This document shows positions 29,734 to 37,889 of a DNA stretch of 64,000 bases, in pieces. Both the position numbers and the translations under genes were made by a program. How positions within the stretch are numbered: position 1 is the first letter of the stretch; each line of letters starts with the position of its first letter. This DNA is from a virus, in the IMG/VR virus record IMGVR_UViG_3300008116_003012, positions 1 through 64,000 of that record; one strand, written 5' to 3'. Below the pieces are notes generated by a model. It saw only the letters and a list, made by a program, of their open reading frames with translations. It was not told the DNA's origin and ran no database searches.

Positions 29734-30363
29734 TTAAGCTTTGATTACAGTTTCTATCCTACTAATAACACTACCTAAAAACATACGTACCATTGTAAGT
29801 GTTTTATCGTCTTTAACATAGAAATAACCGCCGCCCCAACTAAATCCCTTACCTAAGTCTTTTTTAATACGTTTAGTTAATCTTAACTTGTCATTACCAT
29901 CACTCCAATTTAAAAAGCTTTGATAATCTTGTCTAGTAGCGCCTATATGTATTTTGTACTTATAGTCTAGTGTTTTAACAATAACATTGTCTTTTTCTAG
30001 AACAGGACTAGTTCTATTAGGCAAACATATAAACTTGACTCTTTGATCATCTAATGATGCTAATTTTTCAATGGTTGTGCTGTCATTTGTATAAAGATTG
30101 ATTCTAGGACTTTCGATACGCAGTTCGTAATCTCCTAGAGTAGACATTAAATCTCTAAGTTTAAAACAATATTCTAAATCTTCTTTTGTTTTTATCTTAA
30201 CCCAAGAAGGAAAATGTCCTTCATTGAGTTTTTCTAAAACATAATCTAACTTATTGCCTCTAAACCAACCAGCAATAGGACAAACAAGTACAATTTTATA
30301 CTTGTACTTGTTTGCAAACAGACTTACTGTTTCTTTAATCAGAACTGATTTCGGTAGTTTCAT
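29734..30363 (-). CDS. Hypothetical protein
   Basis: 209-aa ORF overlapping the clpA end. Confidence 0.75.
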   Translation of the reverse strand: MKLPKSVLIKETVSLFANKYKYKIVLVCPIAGWFRGNKLDYVLEKLNEGHFPSWVKIKTKEDLEYCFKLRDLMSTLGDYELRIESPRINLYTNDSTTIEKLASLDDQRVKFICLPNRTSPVLEKDNVIVKTLDYKYKIHIGATRQDYQSFLNWSDGNDKLRLTKRIKKDLGKGFSWGGGYFYVKDDKTLTMVRMFLGSVISRIETVIKA

Positions 30364-32599
30364 TCTGTACTATTGGTTTTGTAGCTTTAGTAACAGCAAC
30401 AATCATCAACTGATCTTTATCTAGTGTAATGTTAGCAGTGCCGCCATTCTTTAACTCACCAAACAACATCATTTTAGCAAGACTGCGTTTAATGTCTTTG
30501 TCAATAACACGTTGTAACGGACGAGCACCCATTTTAGGATCAAAGCCTTTGTCAATCAAGTAGTTAAGAGCTTCTTTGTTGATCTTGATCTTAACGCCTT
30601 TTTCTTTAACTTGGGCACGTAACTCATCAATAAACTTATCAACAACCTTAGTCATTGTTTCTTTAGTCAACTTGCTGAATGTAACAACAGCATCTAGTCG
30701 ATTACGGAACTCAGGAGCAAAGAATTTCTTTAATGCTGTGTCACTATAAGTAACTTCTTGTGTACCAAAACCGATCTTGTTCTTTTCAGCATCACTTGCA
30801 CCAGCATTGGTAGTAATGATTAAGATAATGTTACGGCAATCTGCTTGCTTTCCGTTTGAACCAGTGATAAAACCATTGTCCATCATTTGCAACAAGATAG
30901 TTGAAACGTCAGGATGGCTCTTTTCAATCTCGTCTAACAGCAATACACAATTCGGATGCTCTTGAATCTTAGTAATCAGTAAGCCTGCATTTTCTTCAAA
31001 GCCTACATAACCAGGAGGGCTACCGATTAGCTTGCTAACACTATGCTTCTCTTGATACTCACTCATATCAAAGCGCACAAGTTTAACACCCAAGTTCTTT
31101 GCCAAGCTCTTGGCAGTTTCAGTTTTACCTGTACCTGTTGGACCCATGAACACAAACGCACCAACTGGACGATTGTCAGGTTTCAATCCAGCACGGCTAA
31201 CAAGGATTTTGTCAACTACTTCTGTAATGGCAGCTTCTTGTCCATAAACTTCTGCCTTTAGCTGTGATTCAAGATTGTTTAATGTAGAACTTTCTTGTTC
31301 AGCAATAGTTTCTGCAGGCATGTTAACAACTTTAGCCAATTCATATTGAATCTCGCTTTCGCCTACTGTACGAGTTTCTACAATCTTTAAATTGAATCGA
31401 CTGCAAGCCAAGTCAATTAAGTCAATTGCTTTGTCAGGAAGCTTTTTATCGTTCTGATACTTAACGCTCAAGTCAATAGCTGCCTTAATAGCTTCGTCTT
31501 TAATCTTAACCTTATGATGTTCTTCGTAGTATTTCTTAATACCTTTAAGGATCTGGAAGCTCATTTCTTTGCTAGGCTCGTCAACAGTAATGCGTTGGAA
31601 CCTACGCATCAATGCACGATCTTTTTCAAAGTGTTTGCGATATTCTTCCCAGGTAGTTGAAGCAACTACTTTAATGTTGCCTTTGCTCAATGCAGGCTTC
31701 ATCATGTTAGCAAGGTCGTTAGCATTATTGTTAGCTGAACCAGCACCGCTAATCATATGTGCTTCGTCAATGAACAAGATAGTCTTACCTTTCTTGCCTA
31801 ATGCTTTCAACACCAACTTAAAACGTTCTTCGAAATCGCCGCGGTACTTAGATCCTGCAAGCATTGCACTAATGTCCAAGTTGAATACAGTGTAGTCTTT
31901 AAGGAAGTCCGGAACTGCACCTTGCACAATATTGTAAGCCAGACCTTCTGCAATTGCAGTCTTACCTACACCTGGATCACCTACAAGAATAACGTTGCTC
32001 TTGCTACGACGGCCCATTGCCAATGCTACATTCTCAAGTTCTTCTACACGACCGATAACTGGATCAATCTTGTTTTTCTTAACAGCTTCGTTAAGGTTAG
32101 TTGTAAAACTCTTTAGAGCACGATCACTTTGATTGTCACGCGGCTCTTCTTCTTGTTCTACAGTAGAGTCCATCTCGTTGTTGAGATAGTCTGCAAATTT
32201 GTCTTTATCAATGTTAGCTTGCTGAATGTAGTAAGCTGCAAAGCTACGTTTCTCACTCATCATAGCAAGGAATACATCAGTACTTTCAATACGTTGACGG
32301 CCATTAAACAGAACCTGTGTAAACGCACGATTGAGTACACGTTCTACAGTTTGTGTTTTACGAGGTTTAGCATCAGACTCACTAATAATATCGTCACATT
32401 TATTTTTTAAATAATGTTCTAGATTTTTCTTAATAAATTCCGGATCACTTCCGTACCCTTGAACGCATTTGGTAAAAGTTTCTTCGCATAGCATAGCAAA
32501 AAGCAAATGCTCCAAAGTCAAGTATTCGTGTTTAAGTTTCTTAGCAACATCGATTGCTTTTTCAAATACTAGTTGCAGTTCGTTACTTGGTTCTACCAT
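30335..32599 (-). CDS. clpA: ATP-dependent Clp protease ATP-binding subunit
   Basis: Clp N-domain (HEYLTLEHLL); two AAA modules GDPGVGKT and GPTGTGKT; IGF loop (ClpP docking); MGARPL; no ClpB M-domain. Confidence 0.93.
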   Translation of the reverse strand: MVEPSNELQLVFEKAIDVAKKLKHEYLTLEHLLFAMLCEETFTKCVQGYGSDPEFIKKNLEHYLKNKCDDIISESDAKPRKTQTVERVLNRAFTQVLFNGRQRIESTDVFLAMMSEKRSFAAYYIQQANIDKDKFADYLNNEMDSTVEQEEEPRDNQSDRALKSFTTNLNEAVKKNKIDPVIGRVEELENVALAMGRRSKSNVILVGDPGVGKTAIAEGLAYNIVQGAVPDFLKDYTVFNLDISAMLAGSKYRGDFEERFKLVLKALGKKGKTILFIDEAHMISGAGSANNNANDLANMMKPALSKGNIKVVASTTWEEYRKHFEKDRALMRRFQRITVDEPSKEMSFQILKGIKKYYEEHHKVKIKDEAIKAAIDLSVKYQNDKKLPDKAIDLIDLACSRFNLKIVETRTVGESEIQYELAKVVNMPAETIAEQESSTLNNLESQLKAEVYGQEAAITEVVDKILVSRAGLKPDNRPVGAFVFMGPTGTGKTETAKSLAKNLGVKLVRFDMSEYQEKHSVSKLIGSPPGYVGFEENAGLLITKIQEHPNCVLLLDEIEKSHPDVSTILLQMMDNGFITGSNGKQADCRNIILIITTNAGASDAEKNKIGFGTQEVTYSDTALKKFFAPEFRNRLDAVVTFSKLTKETMTKVVDKFIDELRAQVKEKGVKIKINKEALNYLIDKGFDPKMGARPLQRVIDKDIKRSLAKMMLFGELKNGGTANITLDKDQLMIVAVTKATKPIVQNETTEISSD

Positions 32600-32623: not shown

Positions 32624-32651
32624 ATTATACAGTATTATTTTGATTTGTCAA
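32624..32651 (-). promoter_or_regulatory. sigma70-type promoter for clpA
   Basis: TTGACA-N16-TATAAT. Confidence 0.65.
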
Positions 32652-33474
32652 TTAGTTCGGCGTAGAGTTCTTCAAATTTAATTTTAAGATCTGGATCAGT
32701 TAAAACAGGAATATCAATACCCACTATAATAATAAGATTTCCAGACTGTCCTCTTAGGTTAGTAAATCCTAAATTGCTACTGACATATTCGGTACCATGT
32801 TGAACACCGGGCCGAATATTAAATCTAATCCCAGTGCCATTTAAATGATTAACAATTTTAGTACATCCAGTCATTGCTTCAATTGGATTAATAACACAAT
32901 AGGCAATTAAATCATTTCCTCTACGGTCAAACTCTTGACTACGTTGTACCATAACAGTTACATTAAGATCTCCCCGCGGCAAATTAGGTGAACTGTCGTC
33001 CCCCATGCCTTGATATCTAATAACTTGTCCTGATTCTACTCCTGCAGGAACTTGTATTATAACTGTTTGTTTTTTACCATTAGGCAATTGATAGCTTGCT
33101 TCTAAATCCGCTCCGAGATAACTTTGTTTAAAGTTAACGTTTACTCTAATGTTTAGATCTCTATTTTTTCTTCTGTTAGGTTGTTGTGTTTGCCTAAAGA
33201 ATTGTTCAAACGGATTTCCGCCGAACATAGAACTTACATCATGCCATCCTTGTCCGCTACCTTGTGTAAATGGATCAAAGCTGTGTTGCGGAGAATCGTA
33301 TTGTGCTCTTTTAACAGGATCACTTAGTGTGTCATATGCCTGTGCAATGGACTGAAAAGTTGCAGTATCTCCTCCTTTGTCAGGATGATGCTTTGTTGCT
33401 AACTTTCTATAGGCCTTTTTGATTTCGTCCTGACTTGCAGTTTTTGAAACACCTAACGTTTGATAATGATCCAT
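32635..33474 (-). CDS. dnaJ: DnaJ/CbpA-type co-chaperone without the Zn finger
   Basis: J-domain with HPD, G/F-rich linker, C-terminal domain GDLNV. Confidence 0.9.
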
Positions 33475-33538: not shown

Positions 33539-33769
33539 TTATTTTTTCTTGGCGTCTTCGACTTTAGTACCTTCAAACTTTTTGTGAACTTTAACAGTTT
33601 TACAATCTTGTTTTGGTTGTTTAGTTTTTGGATCGATAACTGGCTTGCCGTCTTTGCCCTGAATATCAACACAAACTTTTTTAGTTTCTGGTGCTGCTTT
33701 ATCATCGGCTGCATAAGCAGAACCTGCTGCTAAAAATCCTGCTACGAATAATGTTGTTAAAAATTTCAT
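33539..33769 (-). CDS. Small secreted Lys-rich protein with 2 Cys
   Basis: Signal peptide ending AYA; KKVC...QDCK. Confidence 0.75.
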   Translation of the reverse strand: MKFLTTLFVAGFLAAGSAYAADDKAAPETKKVCVDIQGKDGKPVIDPKTKQPKQDCKTVKVHKKFEGTKVEDAKKK

Positions 33770-33780
33770 TTTATATTCCT

Positions 33781-34311
33781 TTATAGTTCTGGGAAATTTG
33801 GTTGTTGTGGGCCAATCTTTCCGCTTCTTGATGTGAGTATGGTTGCTGGAGGTACTGCGCCGTAGCCTGGGTGACTTGTGCCAAATGAGCCTCCATTGTT
33901 AAATCCGCTTCCCATTGATTGGAGTTGTTCGAATGATTGTGTAAAGGTCGTTGCCATTGGTGTACCAATGTTGCCGCCGGGTTGCTGTCCAACTGTCGCC
34001 GGAGGTGTATATGTTGTATTGACATTTGATGGTAGGGCGGGTCCGCCATTGTTTGCTCCTCCTAGTTTCTCTTGTGTTCGACCATATGCAGCAACTCCTA
34101 GTACTGCACCCATTGCAATATGGTACAAACCTGCGCCTTGTAGTGTAATAGGTTGCCATTGTATAGTAACGCTTCCCTTATCTAAAGCCTGCAACAGACT
34201 CCACAATATTGGAAAAATAACAAAGTCTGCAATACAAGTTAACATGTAACTCCAACCCATAGCTGGACGCCATTTAGAATTCATCCAATCTTCTTTACTA
34301 TGGGCTTTCAT
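33781..34311 (-). CDS. Holin-like protein (GTA 3TM holin family-like) with low-complexity tail
   Basis: KWRPAMGW, TM segments, GVAAYGRTQEK; sits in the lysis cluster. Confidence 0.7.
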   Translation of the reverse strand: MKAHSKEDWMNSKWRPAMGWSYMLTCIADFVIFPILWSLLQALDKGSVTIQWQPITLQGAGLYHIAMGAVLGVAAYGRTQEKLGGANNGGPALPSNVNTTYTPPATVGQQPGGNIGTPMATTFTQSFEQLQSMGSGFNNGGSFGTSHPGYGAVPPATILTSRSGKIGPQQPNFPEL

Positions 34312-34317
34312 AATATA

Positions 34318-34902
34318 TTACAGTTCGGGATGATCTGGTTGCATCGGCATTGGTTTACCTGTGCTAGACATCATTGGCGCACTTGGAGGATTGAAGCTTT
34401 GCGCTGGCGCTGCTCCAAATCCAATAGGTGCTCCGAAGCCTGTTGATACATTATTTCCAAAACTGCTAGTTGGTGTAGCACCAAACGCAGGTCCTGCTCC
34501 AAATCCCGATGACATAGATCCAAAGCCACCGTTGTTTGTTGAAGAAATAGTCTGAGCACCGAATGGTCCACTAATTGTTGTTGATGAGCTTTTTGGTCCT
34601 CTATCCCATCCAGAATTTGCCGCCTTTAATGCTTCTTTCTGTGCTTCTTTGTCACCTGGACTAGCTAACATGATACCACTTAGTGTACCAGTTAAGAATG
34701 TAGCAATAGGAATGATCAGTTCAAAGAACTTTTGATCAATTGGGCTAATAGCGTTCAGCGGTTGTGTAACAAATATCAATGAATATAGCACAACAAATAC
34801 AATACCGAACAATGTCAATGATAGGCAAATTCCGATGAAAAATTTCAATCGGGCCATTAATTCTTCTTCAGTATAAATGTGTTCAGGTTGATTATTTTCC
34901 AC
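34318..34902 (-). CDS. 2-TM membrane protein with FG-repeat tail (GTG start)
   Basis: AAGGAG RBS before the GTG at 34902; two TMs; seven FG dipeptides in the tail. Confidence 0.7.
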   Translation of the reverse strand: MENNQPEHIYTEEELMARLKFFIGICLSLTLFGIVFVVLYSLIFVTQPLNAISPIDQKFFELIIPIATFLTGTLSGIMLASPGDKEAQKEALKAANSGWDRGPKSSSTTISGPFGAQTISSTNNGGFGSMSSGFGAGPAFGATPTSSFGNNVSTGFGAPIGFGAAPAQSFNPPSAPMMSSTGKPMPMQPDHPEL

Positions 34903-35179
34903 AACTGACTCCTTGTGTGTTAGGCGCCATAGCCGGCGCAGAAATTGTTTTAGCTGGTTCATCTTTTGGAGGTCCTAATCTTGGGTCACGTTGACCTTTA
35001 AAAATATGCTCGGGACATGTGCGAGTTACATCACATGTTGGCAACTTGCATATTTGTTTATCCCAGTTATCTGGATTTTGGCAAGGGTAACGAAAACTGT
35101 CACCGTTACTAAAATATGCTAACGCAAGAGGTGCTAATAGTAATACAAACACCCACTTGAGTAATTTTTTATCTTGCAT
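34892..35179 (-). CDS. Membrane-anchored Cys-rich periplasmic protein
   Basis: N-terminal TM; FRYPCQ.P.NW...C..P.C....TCP. Confidence 0.7.
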   Translation of the reverse strand: MQDKKLLKWVFVLLLAPLALAYFSNGDSFRYPCQNPDNWDKQICKLPTCDVTRTCPEHIFKGQRDPRLGPPKDEPAKTISAPAMAPNTQGVSCGK

Positions 35180-35201: not shown

Positions 35202-35468
35202 TTATTTAACAGTTTCAAACTGTTTTTTCTGCTTGTCGTACCACTCATTCCATCCATCTACTTTGTTAGCACATTCATAGTATAAGCCGTAATTTTTAAC
35301 TACAGTTTTTAACAAATCTGTTATTGGTACGTTTGTACCTTCAATAGTGTTTAATGTTGGACATTTTTCTTGTAGAGTAGGTACTGCATCTGGAAAGTTT
35401 CTTTTAACTGGAGTAGGTGTGCTACATCCTGCTAATAACACAACAACGCCTAAAATAATTGCTTTCAT
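35202..35468 (-). CDS. o-spanin (Rz1-like lipoprotein)
   Basis: Lipobox LLAGC, Pro-rich, overlaps the i-spanin end. Confidence 0.8.
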   Translation of the reverse strand: MKAIILGVVVLLAGCSTPTPVKRNFPDAVPTLQEKCPTLNTIEGTNVPITDLLKTVVKNYGLYYECANKVDGWNEWYDKQKKQFETVK

Positions 35469-35959
35469 TTCTTAGGCCCCTCCGCTGCTTTGTTCATAAC
35501 TGCCGCTGCATTATGTGCATCAATAATAGGTTGAGGTACAGGACAACGTTCTACATACTTGATAACTTCTTCTTTTTTAACAACTTCTTTATCTATGTAT
35601 TGAGTAATGTATTCAGTTTTGCCTTTGATAAACTCTTTTTGTTTTACAATTTTTTCTTGTATAACAACATTTTCTTTCTTAGACTCAGCTTCTGCCGCCG
35701 CTACTTTAGCTTCTAACTCTTTAACTCGATCACGCCACATCATTTCTGTAGTGTAACCACCTTTGAAATAGATTCCCGCAGTTAATAGTACAGCACTACC
35801 AATTTGAATTACTGTTACATATTTTGATAGGCCGGGAATTTTGTTTAAGATTTTGTGAAGTACAAAAAATGCTAGAATGAAACTGACCACTCCTGCAATC
35901 AACACTATGTTGACTATGTACATTAACAAAGTGTCAGGTAAGAATGACAGTAACCACAT
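35465..35959 (-). CDS. i-spanin (Rz-like)
   Basis: TM helices plus coiled coil plus C-terminal CPVP; lies between endolysin and lipoprotein. Confidence 0.75.
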   Translation of the reverse strand: MWLLSFLPDTLLMYIVNIVLIAGVVSFILAFFVLHKILNKIPGLSKYVTVIQIGSAVLLTAGIYFKGGYTTEMMWRDRVKELEAKVAAAEAESKKENVVIQEKIVKQKEFIKGKTEYITQYIDKEVVKKEEVIKYVERCPVPQPIIDAHNAAAVMNKAAEGPKK

Positions 35960-35960
35960 A

Positions 35961-36593
35961 TTAATGTACTCCGAGAACGTGCAGAGCGTGATTGTAGTGT
36001 TTAATACGATCTTCTAAGCCAATAGTACCACCGTTAATACGCTTGGTTAGTGTAAGGATATCACCTGCATCTGCCCATTGATTTAGATTATTTTGTTCCC
36101 AGAAGAAACATGCACTTTGTACGGCACCTTCGAATGTTCCTAAGTACTCTACACATTCTTCCATGTTTTCAATACCTACACTGGCTGCAAAGAATGTATA
36201 ATTATTCTTACCAGTTAATTGAATTAGTCCACGTCCTAGGTAGCGATATCCGTCACCTGACGCTTCGTCACCGTTGCCCATACGATTGGCATAGACCTTG
36301 TTGGCAATCATTTGAGGATTTTTAGCATAAGGCTGTGCAGACTCTAGTGTAGGAAAGTATTTCTTAAAAGTTTTAGTTAAACTTTCTGCTTTGTAATTTA
36401 AATTCTCTTGTAGGAATTTAAAATTGCCACTTTCGTGAGCGCACTGAGCAATAAACGCTGCTACTCTTTCAGGAGTATTAATTTTATACTCTGGAAGAAT
36501 TTGATTCAATGCATCGTACCAATAGTCTAGATAAGGGTTCTTACCTATCATTTCCGCTAAATGTGCTTTTTTAAATTCAAATGTAAAACTCAT
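35961..36593 (-). CDS. GH19 endolysin
   Basis: AAFIAQCAHES, ENLNY, YLGRGLIQLTGKNNY, TKRINGG. Confidence 0.93.
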   Translation of the reverse strand: MSFTFEFKKAHLAEMIGKNPYLDYWYDALNQILPEYKINTPERVAAFIAQCAHESGNFKFLQENLNYKAESLTKTFKKYFPTLESAQPYAKNPQMIANKVYANRMGNGDEASGDGYRYLGRGLIQLTGKNNYTFFAASVGIENMEECVEYLGTFEGAVQSACFFWEQNNLNQWADAGDILTLTKRINGGTIGLEDRIKHYNHALHVLGVH

Positions 36594-37310: not shown

Positions 37311-37889
37311 TTATGCTGCTCCTGGTGTTACAGCAGGTGCTGCTGCTGGTGCAGCCGCTGTTGGTGCTGCTGGTGCGGCAGCAGCCGCAGTATCAGCTGG
37401 CTCGCTTGGTGCTGCTTGTGTTCCTTCAGTACGGCCAATACCCATATTTTCTTTCATCTTTGACATATAACCATTATAAATGTCAGCCGCTAGCTTCTTA
37501 GGCATATTAATTTCTACAACCCATACTGGTTTTCTATCCAGTTTTCCTTTTTGTGTGTTTGGTCTCAAATCGTCATGTGTTTCTACTTTTCGAGGTTCTA
37601 CTAAAAAGGTCTTTTCATATTTGACTTTACATCCGTAATCTAATAGGCGTTTACCTCCCATCGGATTCGGCATTTTATCTTGGGGCCACATGAAACTAGC
37701 CTTGATCCAATGACGATCTATATGAGGACCACTACATAGTTCCCCATCTTCCCAGTTTTCGTAGACATACATATCCATCTCGTCCAACACTCTTTCAAAG
37801 TCTTTTAACACTGAAAGATTGCTGTTTGTGTTGTATATTGACTCTACGTTTTTGATAACTTCTAAAATATCTAGCATAATGACTTCCAC
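37311..37889 (-). CDS. Hypothetical late protein with Ala/Pro tail
   Basis: LKDFERVLDE.D.YVY.NW; TAAATA upstream. Confidence 0.75.
   Translation of the reverse strand: MEVIMLDILEVIKNVESIYNTNSNLSVLKDFERVLDEMDMYVYENWEDGELCSGPHIDRHWIKASFMWPQDKMPNPMGGKRLLDYGCKVKYEKTFLVEPRKVETHDDLRPNTQKGKLDRKPVWVVEINMPKKLAADIYNGYMSKMKENMGIGRTEGTQAAPSEPADTAAAAAPAAPTAAAPAAAPAVTPGAA

What the first reader, a model, noticed from the sequence alone, without database searches (positions are those of the whole stretch)
33781..34902. Two lysis-cassette membrane proteins with FG-rich disordered tails ending in the same motif (SxGKxxxQPxxPEL-like)
Seen: the 2-TM protein tail has seven FG dipeptides in Gly/Ser-rich spacers (GGFGSMSSGFGAGPAFGATPTSSFGNNVSTGFGAPIGFG) and ends SSTGKPMPMQPDHPEL. 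The adjacent holin-like protein has an unrelated TM core, but its tail is G/S/T/P-rich and ends SRSGKIGPQQPNFPEL. Inference: a shared C-terminal docking or degron motif, plus nucleoporin-like FG tails that could cluster or phase-separate to time lysis or gate a pore. The phage's own dnaJ and clpA lie immediately downstream and could read such a tag.
Basis: partly seen in the sequence, partly recalled or inferred. Interest (0 to 1): 0.7.

Follow-up and report, generated by a model that had tools for sequence, protein, structure and literature searches.

The report
Shared docking tail on phage holins
Two unrelated membrane proteins in the cell-bursting gene set of an uncultured large phage carry the same floppy tail ending in a strictly conserved 13-residue peptide, probably a docking tag for a still unknown partner that controls when the cell is burst.

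Summary
Two adjacent minus-strand genes in an endolysin/spanin cassette, A (34318-34902) and B (33781-34311), have unrelated two-helix membrane cores. Both end in a low-complexity tail closed by G-K-x8-9-P-E-[L/I]. Profile comparison aligns only the tails. In 160 related viral loci the tip occurs in 150 of 177 A/B-family ORFs and in none of 10,855 other ORFs. Codons vary synonymously at the conserved positions. A tail profile run against 1.84 billion proteins returned 42 hits, all at the extreme C-terminus. Ten had an A or B core; most others were short fragments, and eight had unrelated N-terminal stretches I could not resolve.

FG repeats are significant in A but not in this B, and 22 of 126 distinct loci nearly lack them. 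The tip is the constant element. Charge distribution puts both tails in the cytoplasm.

Best reading: a swappable tether-plus-docking-peptide module on holin-type proteins, partner unknown. First readers noted the same feature in other genomes of this scan. I found no description in print.

The parts
34591..34902 (-). Protein A membrane core (residues 1-104 of the 194-aa form): two TM helices plus a juxtamembrane helix. Family of unknown function (phrog_25359).
   Evidence: core nearly invariant in 66 sequences. AF2 helices 12-46, 55-78 and 85-97. GTG start with AAGGAG.
34360..34590 (-). Protein A disordered linker: uncharged, Gly/Ser/Ala/Pro/Phe-rich, 7 FG.
   Evidence: composition and FG shuffle test. 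(block-mean pLDDT 40-48 for residues 101-170).
34321..34359 (-). Protein A C-terminal tip, GKPMPMQPDHPEL (stop codon 34318-34320).
   Evidence: Block-mean pLDDT about 70.
34063..34311 (-). Protein B membrane core (residues 1-83): TeaA/GTA-type holin fold, last two TM helices of PF11351.
   Evidence: PF11351, E=1.3e-5, 26.2 bits against cut-off 24.8, profile positions 61-122 of 123. (phrog_3427 holin, 3.2e-7). (helices 4-43 and 56-83).
33823..34062 (-). Protein B disordered linker: Gly/Thr/Pro/Asn/Ser-rich, 2 charged residues in 78, 1 FG.
   Evidence: (pLDDT <50 at residues 108-145).
33784..33822 (-). Protein B C-terminal tip, GKIGPQQPNFPEL (stop codon 33781-33783).
   Evidence: Block-mean pLDDT 68.
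34892..35179 (-). s95: exported or signal-anchored Cys-rich 95-aa protein, directly upstream of A and overlapping its start.
   Evidence: In one search, s95 sits directly upstream of A in every architecture except two single-locus ones ('A B s76 DnaJ ClpA' and 'A s76').
33539..33769 (-). s76: secreted Lys-rich 2-Cys 76-aa protein directly downstream of B.
   Evidence: Present in 124 of 148 loci with flank.
35961..36593 (-). GH19-type endolysin.
   Evidence: phrog_181 endolysin, E=1e-74. (Glyco_hydro_19, below cut-off).
35465..35959 (-). i-spanin-like protein (N-terminal TM plus coiled periplasmic part).
   Evidence: sequence. Conserved position. No family above threshold, and only phrog_4952 'signal peptide motif' (E=0.0017).
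35202..35468 (-). o-spanin lipoprotein (LLAGC lipobox).
   Evidence: phrog_456 Rz-like spanin, 1.7e-6. (LysC, E=0.0039, below cut-off).
32635..33474 (-). Phage J-domain protein (J domain plus DnaJ_C; no zinc-finger hit).
30335..32599 (-). Phage ClpA-type AAA+ unfoldase.
   Evidence: 39-45% identity to annotated phage ClpA. Sequence.

Best explanation
The tails are a modular cytoplasmic appendage of the phage's holin-type proteins. Each has an intrinsically disordered, almost uncharged linker of variable length (24-115 residues, often with [G/S]FG repeats). Each ends in a 13-residue proline-rich tip, G-K-x8-9-P-E-[L/I/K/R]-COOH, whose spacing from the free C-terminus is fixed.

The module works like the 'flexible linker plus C-terminal docking tip' of bacterial SSB or FtsZ (recalled analogy). 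The linker tethers the tip, and the tip docks onto one common partner in the cytoplasm. That partner is not core-specific and is not the phage's own ClpA or DnaJ. It is more likely a conserved host factor, or a phage protein found in all these phages. Docking controls when or where the holin assembles, that is, lysis timing.

Shown here: the module exists, is homologous on two unrelated cores, is swapped between cores, is selected at the protein level, and is restricted to these lysis proteins.

Inferred: cytoplasmic location (positive-inside rule), disorder (composition and AF2 confidence), the docking function, and the effect on timing. The partner is unidentified.
For: 1. Same module on unrelated cores: hhalign aligns only the tails. 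The same tip subtype (…MMSSTGKPMPMQPDQPEL) occurs on A cores and B cores.

2. Specificity: the tip regex hits 150/177 A/B ORFs and 0/10,855 other ORFs in 160 loci. Most of the 27 misses are one-residue indel variants. All 60 tail-search hits have an A core (50) or B core (10). The 42 hits of the tail profile in 1.84 billion representatives all match at the extreme C-terminus.

3. Protein-level selection: Gly, Lys, Pro, Glu and Leu/Ile codons vary synonymously at conserved positions. The tip codons do not hold the next gene's Shine-Dalgarno sequence.

4. The tip is constant while the linker varies: length 24-115 residues, FG count 0-9, and 22/126 loci are nearly FG-free.

5. Disorder: linker pLDDT is below 50 while the tip reaches 68-73 in both models.

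6. Topology: mean K+R for N-flank/loop/C-flank is 4.55/0.55/2.00 for B (n=73) and 2.05/1.00/2.25 for A (n=65). B-core relatives also exist with an N-terminal hydrophilic extension of about 190 residues that shows no N-terminal hydrophobic stretch. Both fit N-in/C-in.

7. Holin context: the order endolysin, spanins, [s95-A], [B], s76 is conserved. B belongs to PF11351, the family of the experimentally shown ICP1 holin TeaA (passages read in PMC7182436). Phages carry A only, B only or both (81, 96 and 18 loci). Complete A-only genomes have no B core.
Against: - No partner was found.
- Within genomes that hold both proteins, the two tips are not significantly more alike than in shuffled pairings (12 pairs, P=0.18). 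So there is no co-evolution signal.
- The terminal residue switches between Leu/Ile and Lys/Arg. Of the 104 tips among the 120 closest B-core clusters, 50 end PEK and 30 end PER. That is unusual for a single hydrophobic pocket.
- Topology is inferred only; for A the charge bias is modest.
- Holin activity of A and B is not shown. The PA5oct B-core homologue is annotated as a virion protein from mass spectrometry.
Confidence: 0.5

Rival explanations
1. The tip is a C-terminal degron. A cytoplasmic or membrane AAA+ protease engages the free end and pulls the holin out through the disordered tail, keeping holin levels low until late in infection. The protease could be the phage ClpA with host ClpP, or host ClpXP, Lon or FtsH.
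For: - A long unstructured cytoplasmic tail with a conserved free end is what processive proteases need (general knowledge, recalled).
- ClpA with an IGF-type loop (…KIGFG…) and DnaJ follow the cassette in 104/148 loci.
Against: - G001, G002 and G003, estimated 98-100% complete, keep the tip without a phage ClpA or J-protein.
- ClpA-bearing cultured relatives lack the tail.
- The ending P-E-[L/I/K/R] does not resemble the nonpolar LAA-type tags (recalled).
- The invariant Gly-Lys 12 residues upstream and the PxxP spacing suggest a defined binding surface rather than a pore-loop tag.
Confidence: 0.15
2. The tails act on their own as cohesive, FG-nucleoporin-like domains. At high density in the membrane the uncharged [G/S]FG linkers stick together and drive the switch-like two-dimensional clustering of holins. 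The tip would then be a self-association or capping element rather than a tag for another protein.
For: - A has 7 FG in an uncharged 72-residue linker (0/10,000 shuffles reach 7).
- Family-wide, 55-67% of Phe are followed by Gly, although Gly makes up only 13-20% of the linkers.
- The charged fraction of B linkers is 0.9%.
- Where both genes are present, A keeps the FG-rich tail and B's is short (median 137 aa, 0 FG).
Against: - 22 of 126 distinct loci have at most 1 aromatic-Gly dipeptide in any tail yet keep the tip, including the near-complete genome G002.
- This window's B has 1 FG.
- The most conserved element is the tip, not the repeats.
Confidence: 0.12
3. The tails are periplasmic. The tip binds an exported neighbour (s76 or s95), a PDZ-type protease or the cell wall, as in T4-type lysis inhibition through periplasmic antiholins.
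For: - Exported s95 always accompanies A, and s76 follows the tip-bearing gene in 124/148 loci.
- PDZ domains read free C-termini (recalled).
Against: - The positive-inside counts place both tails in the cytoplasm.
- B-core forms with a long N-terminal hydrophilic extension that shows no N-terminal hydrophobic stretch imply N-in and therefore C-in.
- 24 of 148 loci lack s76.
Confidence: 0.1
4. The tip acts as a nascent peptide inside the ribosome exit tunnel. It slows termination at the stop codon, so the ribosome stays tethered to the inserted holin through the long linker and occludes the closely following start codon.
For: - The peptide is proline-rich at the extreme end, with fixed spacing to the stop codon.
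- It needs no phage partner.
- The next start lies 6 nt (A to B) and 11 nt (B to s76) after the stop.
- It shows limited likeness to the …PHPRL end of apidaecin, which binds the tunnel in nascent-chain orientation (passages in PMC11347161). 16 of 137 tips end HPxX.
Against: - The residues reported as critical in apidaecin (R17, R12) are not matched. Position -2 is Glu in 86/137 tips and Arg in 1/137.
- The last residue, and thus the P-site tRNA, varies.
- The stop is TAA in 123/133, as expected for AT-rich DNA.
- Tight gene spacing is ordinary in phages.
Confidence: 0.06

Closest known systems
ICP1 holin TeaA / GTA_holin_3TM family (PF11351), with its neighbouring TM antiholin ArrA
   Same: B's core scores above Pfam's cut-off for PF11351. 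TeaA of this family has shown holin activity, and a second TM protein next to it tunes timing (passages read in PMC7182436). Here too there are two neighbouring TM proteins in the lysis cassette.
   Different: - B matches only the last two of the three helices.
- A has no detectable similarity to anything named.
- The disordered tail with conserved tip was not mentioned in the passages I read.
- The tail is absent from the cultured B-core homologues checked.
SSB and FtsZ 'disordered linker plus conserved C-terminal tip' architecture (recalled)
   Same: A functional core, a low-complexity linker of variable length and composition, and a short conserved peptide at the very C-terminus. In SSB and FtsZ that peptide docks several partners.
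   Different: There is no sequence relation. The tip here is proline-rich and near neutral (net charge -1 to +1 in 124/137), not acidic. It sits on membrane proteins, and its partner is unknown.
Cytoplasmic C-terminal regulatory tails of classical holins such as lambda S (recalled)
   Same: A cytoplasmic C-terminal extension after the last TM helix of a holin, thought to tune timing.
   Different: Classical tails are short and highly charged. These are 60-110 residues, almost uncharged, and end in a conserved peptide shared by unrelated cores.
Cohesive FG domains of nucleoporins (recalled)
   Same: Uncharged Gly/Ser/Thr/Asn-rich spacers with repeated [G/S]FG. This holds statistically for A.
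   Different: There is no homology. The repeats are few (0-9) and dispensable in 22/126 loci, and there is no transport-receptor context.
Type II proline-rich antimicrobial peptides (apidaecin)
   Same: A proline-rich peptide whose free C-terminus and spacing matter. Some tips end …PPHPE[L/I] (4/137), compared with the …PPHPRL end printed in PMC11347161.
   Different: The critical Arg residues are absent. The tip is not cationic and is not a free secreted peptide.

Membership tests
PF11351 GTA_holin_3TM / TeaA-type holin (protein B) | Pfam model match above the gathering score | tested here: met
   26.2 bits against cut-off 24.8, E=1.3e-5. phrog_3427 'holin', 3.2e-7.
PF11351 GTA_holin_3TM / TeaA-type holin (protein B) | Three transmembrane helices | tested here: not met
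   The match covers profile positions 61-122 of 123 only. AF2 gives two long helices.
PF11351 GTA_holin_3TM / TeaA-type holin (protein B) | Encoded with endolysin and spanins | tested here: met
   with conserved synteny. Exceptions: alternate-tip relatives sit among structural genes, and cultured homologues lie outside a lysis cassette.
PF11351 GTA_holin_3TM / TeaA-type holin (protein B) | Collapses proton motive force / lethal hole formation | not testable with these tools
   Needs expression assays such as those described for TeaA.
FG-nucleoporin-like cohesive domain | Many FG dipeptides in uncharged spacers | tested here: inconclusive
   Met for A (7 FG, 0 charged of 72). Not met for this window's B (1 FG). 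22/126 loci have at most 1 aromatic-Gly dipeptide.
FG-nucleoporin-like cohesive domain | Self-cohesion / phase separation | not testable with these tools
   Needs in vitro assays.
ssrA-like C-terminal Clp degron | Nonpolar C-terminal tag (LAA-type; recalled) | tested here: not met
   Tips end P-E-[L/I/K/R].
ssrA-like C-terminal Clp degron | Co-occurrence with the phage ClpA proposed as its reader | tested here: not met
   0 of 3 tip-bearing genomes estimated 98-100% complete have ClpA or a J-domain; controls were positive.
Type II PrAMP (apidaecin-like) | Penultimate Arg and C-terminal Leu; Pro11/Arg12 equivalents | tested here: not met
   Position -2 is Arg in 1/137 and Glu in 86/137. Critical residues are as stated in PMC11347161.
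Linker-plus-tip docking architecture (SSB/FtsZ-like; a way of working, not a homologous family) | Variable disordered linker ending in a conserved extreme-C-terminal peptide | tested here: met
Linker-plus-tip docking architecture (SSB/FtsZ-like; a way of working, not a homologous family) | A defined binding partner for the tip | tested here: inconclusive
   No partner was identified. See Tried and rejected for the single complex job.

The most novel reading that the evidence does not exclude
The tip is a universal docking peptide for a conserved cytoplasmic host factor that licenses holin triggering. This would be a new kind of lysis checkpoint, carried as a swappable linker-plus-tip cassette. 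In it the cohesive FG linker supplies the cooperative clustering that makes lysis switch-like. It would be the first FG-type cohesive domain with a function in a bacterial virus.
Probability: 0.15. Interest if true: 0.8.

Novelty: new variant of a known kind. Interest (0 to 1): 0.55.

Why it matters
Holin timing sets phage burst size and fitness. Known regulation relies on dual starts, membrane antiholins or periplasmic and cytoplasmic antiholin domains.

In this group, two unrelated holin-type cores carry one portable disordered tail with an invariant end peptide. That points to a shared, unrecognised interaction that could be read from sequence.

The tip gives a concrete handle, a 13-residue peptide with a free C-terminus, to fish for the partner and to test whether disordered FG-type tails contribute to the all-or-none triggering of holins.

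Tried and rejected
- **Complex prediction.** One job with the phage DnaJ (alignment A4) and the 36-residue tail (alignment A3) gave 'no answer' (score 0.00, mark 0.32). This is neither for nor against binding. ClpA, the endolysin and other neighbours were not tried because the cap is one job.
- **Shine-Dalgarno overlap as the cause of PE[L/I] conservation.** Rejected. A's last codons are CCC GAA CTG TAA with no SD, and B's SD (AGGA) lies after its stop. Codons vary synonymously.
- **Host mimicry.** The tail profile found no convincing non-A/B protein. Eight short hits with unrelated N-terminal stretches could be chimeric or misframed calls; I could not resolve them. A 13-residue motif is near the detection limit of such a search.
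- **Co-evolution of the two tips within a genome.** Not significant (P=0.18, 12 pairs).
- **Longer fused forms of the B core, searched for a localisation clue.** Five hits. One is an RCC1-repeat fusion of doubtful reality; four have a long N-terminal disordered extension.
- **Literature.** Searches for 'holin + intrinsically disordered + C-terminal tail + phage', 'holin + FG repeat', 'holin/glycine-rich/cytoplasmic C-terminal/lysis timing' and 'PF11351' found no description of this tail. For 'jumbo phage/freshwater/ClpA/DnaJ', I read passages of the top hit, PMC12619734. It concerns another lineage and has no occurrence of 'holin' or 'lysis'.
- **Whole-genome comparison to list candidate phage partners.** Not attempted, as I judged it low-yield.

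Full report
**What is there.**
The finding lies in a minus-strand late block. Reading downstream, the genes are:
- two virion proteins (37889-36590; phrog_12928 and phrog_13138);
- a GH19-type endolysin (36593-35961; phrog_181, E=1e-74);
- an i-spanin-like protein (35959-35465);
- an o-spanin lipoprotein (35468-35202; phrog_456, 1.7e-6);
- an exported Cys-rich 95-aa protein, s95 (35179-34892);
- protein A (34902-34318);
- protein B (34311-33781);
- a secreted Lys-rich 76-aa protein, s76 (33769-33539);
- a J-domain protein (33474-32635);
- a ClpA-type unfoldase (32599-30335).

The record is a 119,006-base virus contig. Its nearest cultured relatives by ClpA and by the B core are PA5oct-, Atu_ph07-, Phosso- and RaK2-type jumbo phages.

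**The observation.**
A most likely starts at GTG 34902, six bases after AAGGAG. Public gene calls give the same 194-aa product (P0004).

A's linker has 7 FG among 8 Phe, with no charged residue in 72. None of 10,000 shuffles reaches 7. B's linker has one FG, which is not more than chance.

Only these two of 852 stop-to-stop segments in the window carry the tip pattern. Only these two of 1,580 in the whole record end PE[L/I].

The cores are unrelated. Profile-profile comparison of the two family alignments aligns the tails alone (probability 97.1%, E=5e-11).

**Conservation.**
I kept the best 80 loci of each.

By membrane core, these loci hold 81 A-type and 97 B-type ORFs, giving 65 and 72 unique complete proteins. 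Counted from the C-terminus:

| Position | A family | B family |
|---|---|---|
| Gly -13 | 62/65 | 57/72 |
| Lys -12 | 62/65 | 64/72 |
| Pro or Val -9 | 63/65 | 67/72 |
| Pro -3 | 61/65 | 67/72 |
| Glu -2 | 53/65 | 33/72 |
| Leu/Ile -1 | 59/65 | 54/72 |
| Arg -1 | – | 14/72 |

- A strict pattern hits 150 of 177 A/B ORFs and 0 of the other 10,855 ORFs in the same loci.
- Most of the 27 misses are one-residue indel variants. Three unique proteins instead end …DPPxRNTRND, an alternative end found on both cores and in other gene contexts.
- Conserved positions use several synonymous codons each, for example GGC/GGT/GGA, AAA/AAG and CCA/CCT/CCG. The tip codons do not carry the next gene's ribosome-binding site. 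Selection is therefore on the peptide.
- In the 120 closest B-core clusters of the large protein collection, 104 carry a tip. Of these, 50 end PEK and 30 end PER. The last residue is therefore aliphatic or basic.

**Specificity and modularity.**
A word-based search with A's tail found 60 proteins, 50 with A cores and 10 with B cores. The same tip subtype appears on both cores.

An HMM of 119 tails, run against 1.84 billion representatives, gave 42 hits at E of 0.001 or better, and every match ended at the protein's last residue. Of the 42:
- ten had a recognisable A or B core;
- six of the coreless hits began with A's post-membrane segment;
- most of the remainder were short fragments;
- eight short entries had unrelated N-terminal stretches that I could not resolve, and these are possibly chimeric calls.

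Cultured B-core homologues (Phosso, Atu_ph07, PA5oct) lack the tail.

**Gene context.**
The order Lys, spanins, [s95-A], [B], s76 is conserved.
- Loci hold A only, B only or both: 81 with A, 96 with B, 18 with both.
- Where both occur, B is short and FG-poor (median 137 aa and 0 FG, against 180 aa and 3 FG when B is alone).
- Complete A-only genomes have no B core. There A, with s95, is the only tail-bearing membrane protein of the cassette and is probably itself the holin.

**Disorder and topology.**
AF2 with family alignments gives a helical hairpin in each protein, linker confidence mostly below 50, and 68-73 for the tip.

Lys+Arg counts for N-flank, loop and C-flank are 4.55/0.55/2.00 for B (n=73) and 2.05/1.00/2.25 for A (n=65). 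By the positive-inside rule both are N-in/C-in, which places the tails in the cytoplasm. B-core relatives with a hydrophilic N-terminal extension of about 190 residues, showing no N-terminal hydrophobic stretch, agree with this. This is inference, not proof.

**The ClpA/DnaJ idea.**
- DnaJ and ClpA follow the cassette in 104 of 148 loci with enough flank.
- Three tip-bearing relatives estimated 98-100% complete have neither, although two control records matched strongly in the same searches.
- ClpA-bearing cultured relatives lack the tail.

The phage's own ClpA/DnaJ cannot be the obligatory reader. Host homologues remain possible.

**Mechanism.**
I commit to a tether-plus-docking-peptide reading at confidence 0.5. 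It rests on a variable, dispensable-in-detail linker, an invariant end peptide at fixed distance from the free carboxylate, portability between unrelated cores, and restriction to the holin-type genes.

The rivals are a degron, autonomous FG cohesion, a periplasmic interaction and a nascent-chain effect at termination. Each is listed with its tests.

The likeness to apidaecin's end is superficial, because the residues reported as critical there are not matched.

**Novelty.**
The four literature searches aimed at this tail found no description of it. The PF11351 family has one characterised holin, ICP1 TeaA (passages read).

First readers of this scan noted the same feature in other genomes; none of those notes had been followed up.

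I class it as a new variant of a known kind: a holin with a regulatory cytoplasmic tail, here in the form of a portable disordered linker with a conserved tip.

Noticed in passing
window 34892-34962: The long ATG-initiated form of A (214 aa) overlaps the end of s95 by 71 bases. The GTG at 34902 has a strong AAGGAG 6 nt upstream. The extra 20 residues would add five basic residues, reminiscent of dual-start holin/antiholin pairs (recalled). Family consensus is conserved over this stretch too, but that may reflect s95's reading frame.
   Followed up: partly
window 34892-35179 and 33539-33769: s95 (exported, six Cys) accompanies A in all but two single-locus architectures. s76 (secreted, Lys-rich, two Cys) follows the tip-bearing gene in 124/148 loci. 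Both are candidate periplasmic lysis regulators of unknown function.
   Followed up: partly
L078:2920-3420, L127:5968-6519, L149:2715-3221: An alternative conserved end, …DPPxRNTRND, replaces the PE[L/I] tip on one A-core and two B-core proteins. The B-core loci lie among structural-type genes, not next to an endolysin.
   Followed up: partly
proteins P0227-P0230: B-core relatives of 314-326 aa have an N-terminal extension of about 190 residues (acidic, then Gly-Met-rich) and a tail ending …GFH. This is another disordered-appendage variant of the same holin core.
   Followed up: no
window 32635-33474: The phage J-protein has a J domain, a Gly/Phe-containing stretch and DnaJ_C, but no zinc-finger hit. 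It therefore looks like a class B (CbpA/Sis1-like, recalled) J-protein.
   Followed up: no
L163:3956-4282 (PA5oct): The PA5oct B-core homologue is annotated 'structural protein, ESI-MS/MS' and lies among adhesin and structural genes, not in a lysis cassette. This raises the question whether the core is always a holin.
   Followed up: no
protein P0226: A 590-aa database protein joins the B core to RCC1-type repeats. It may be a true fusion or an assembly or frameshift artefact.
   Followed up: no
window 37311-37889: The virion protein upstream of the cassette ends in a 35-residue Ala/Pro-rich low-complexity tail.
   Followed up: no
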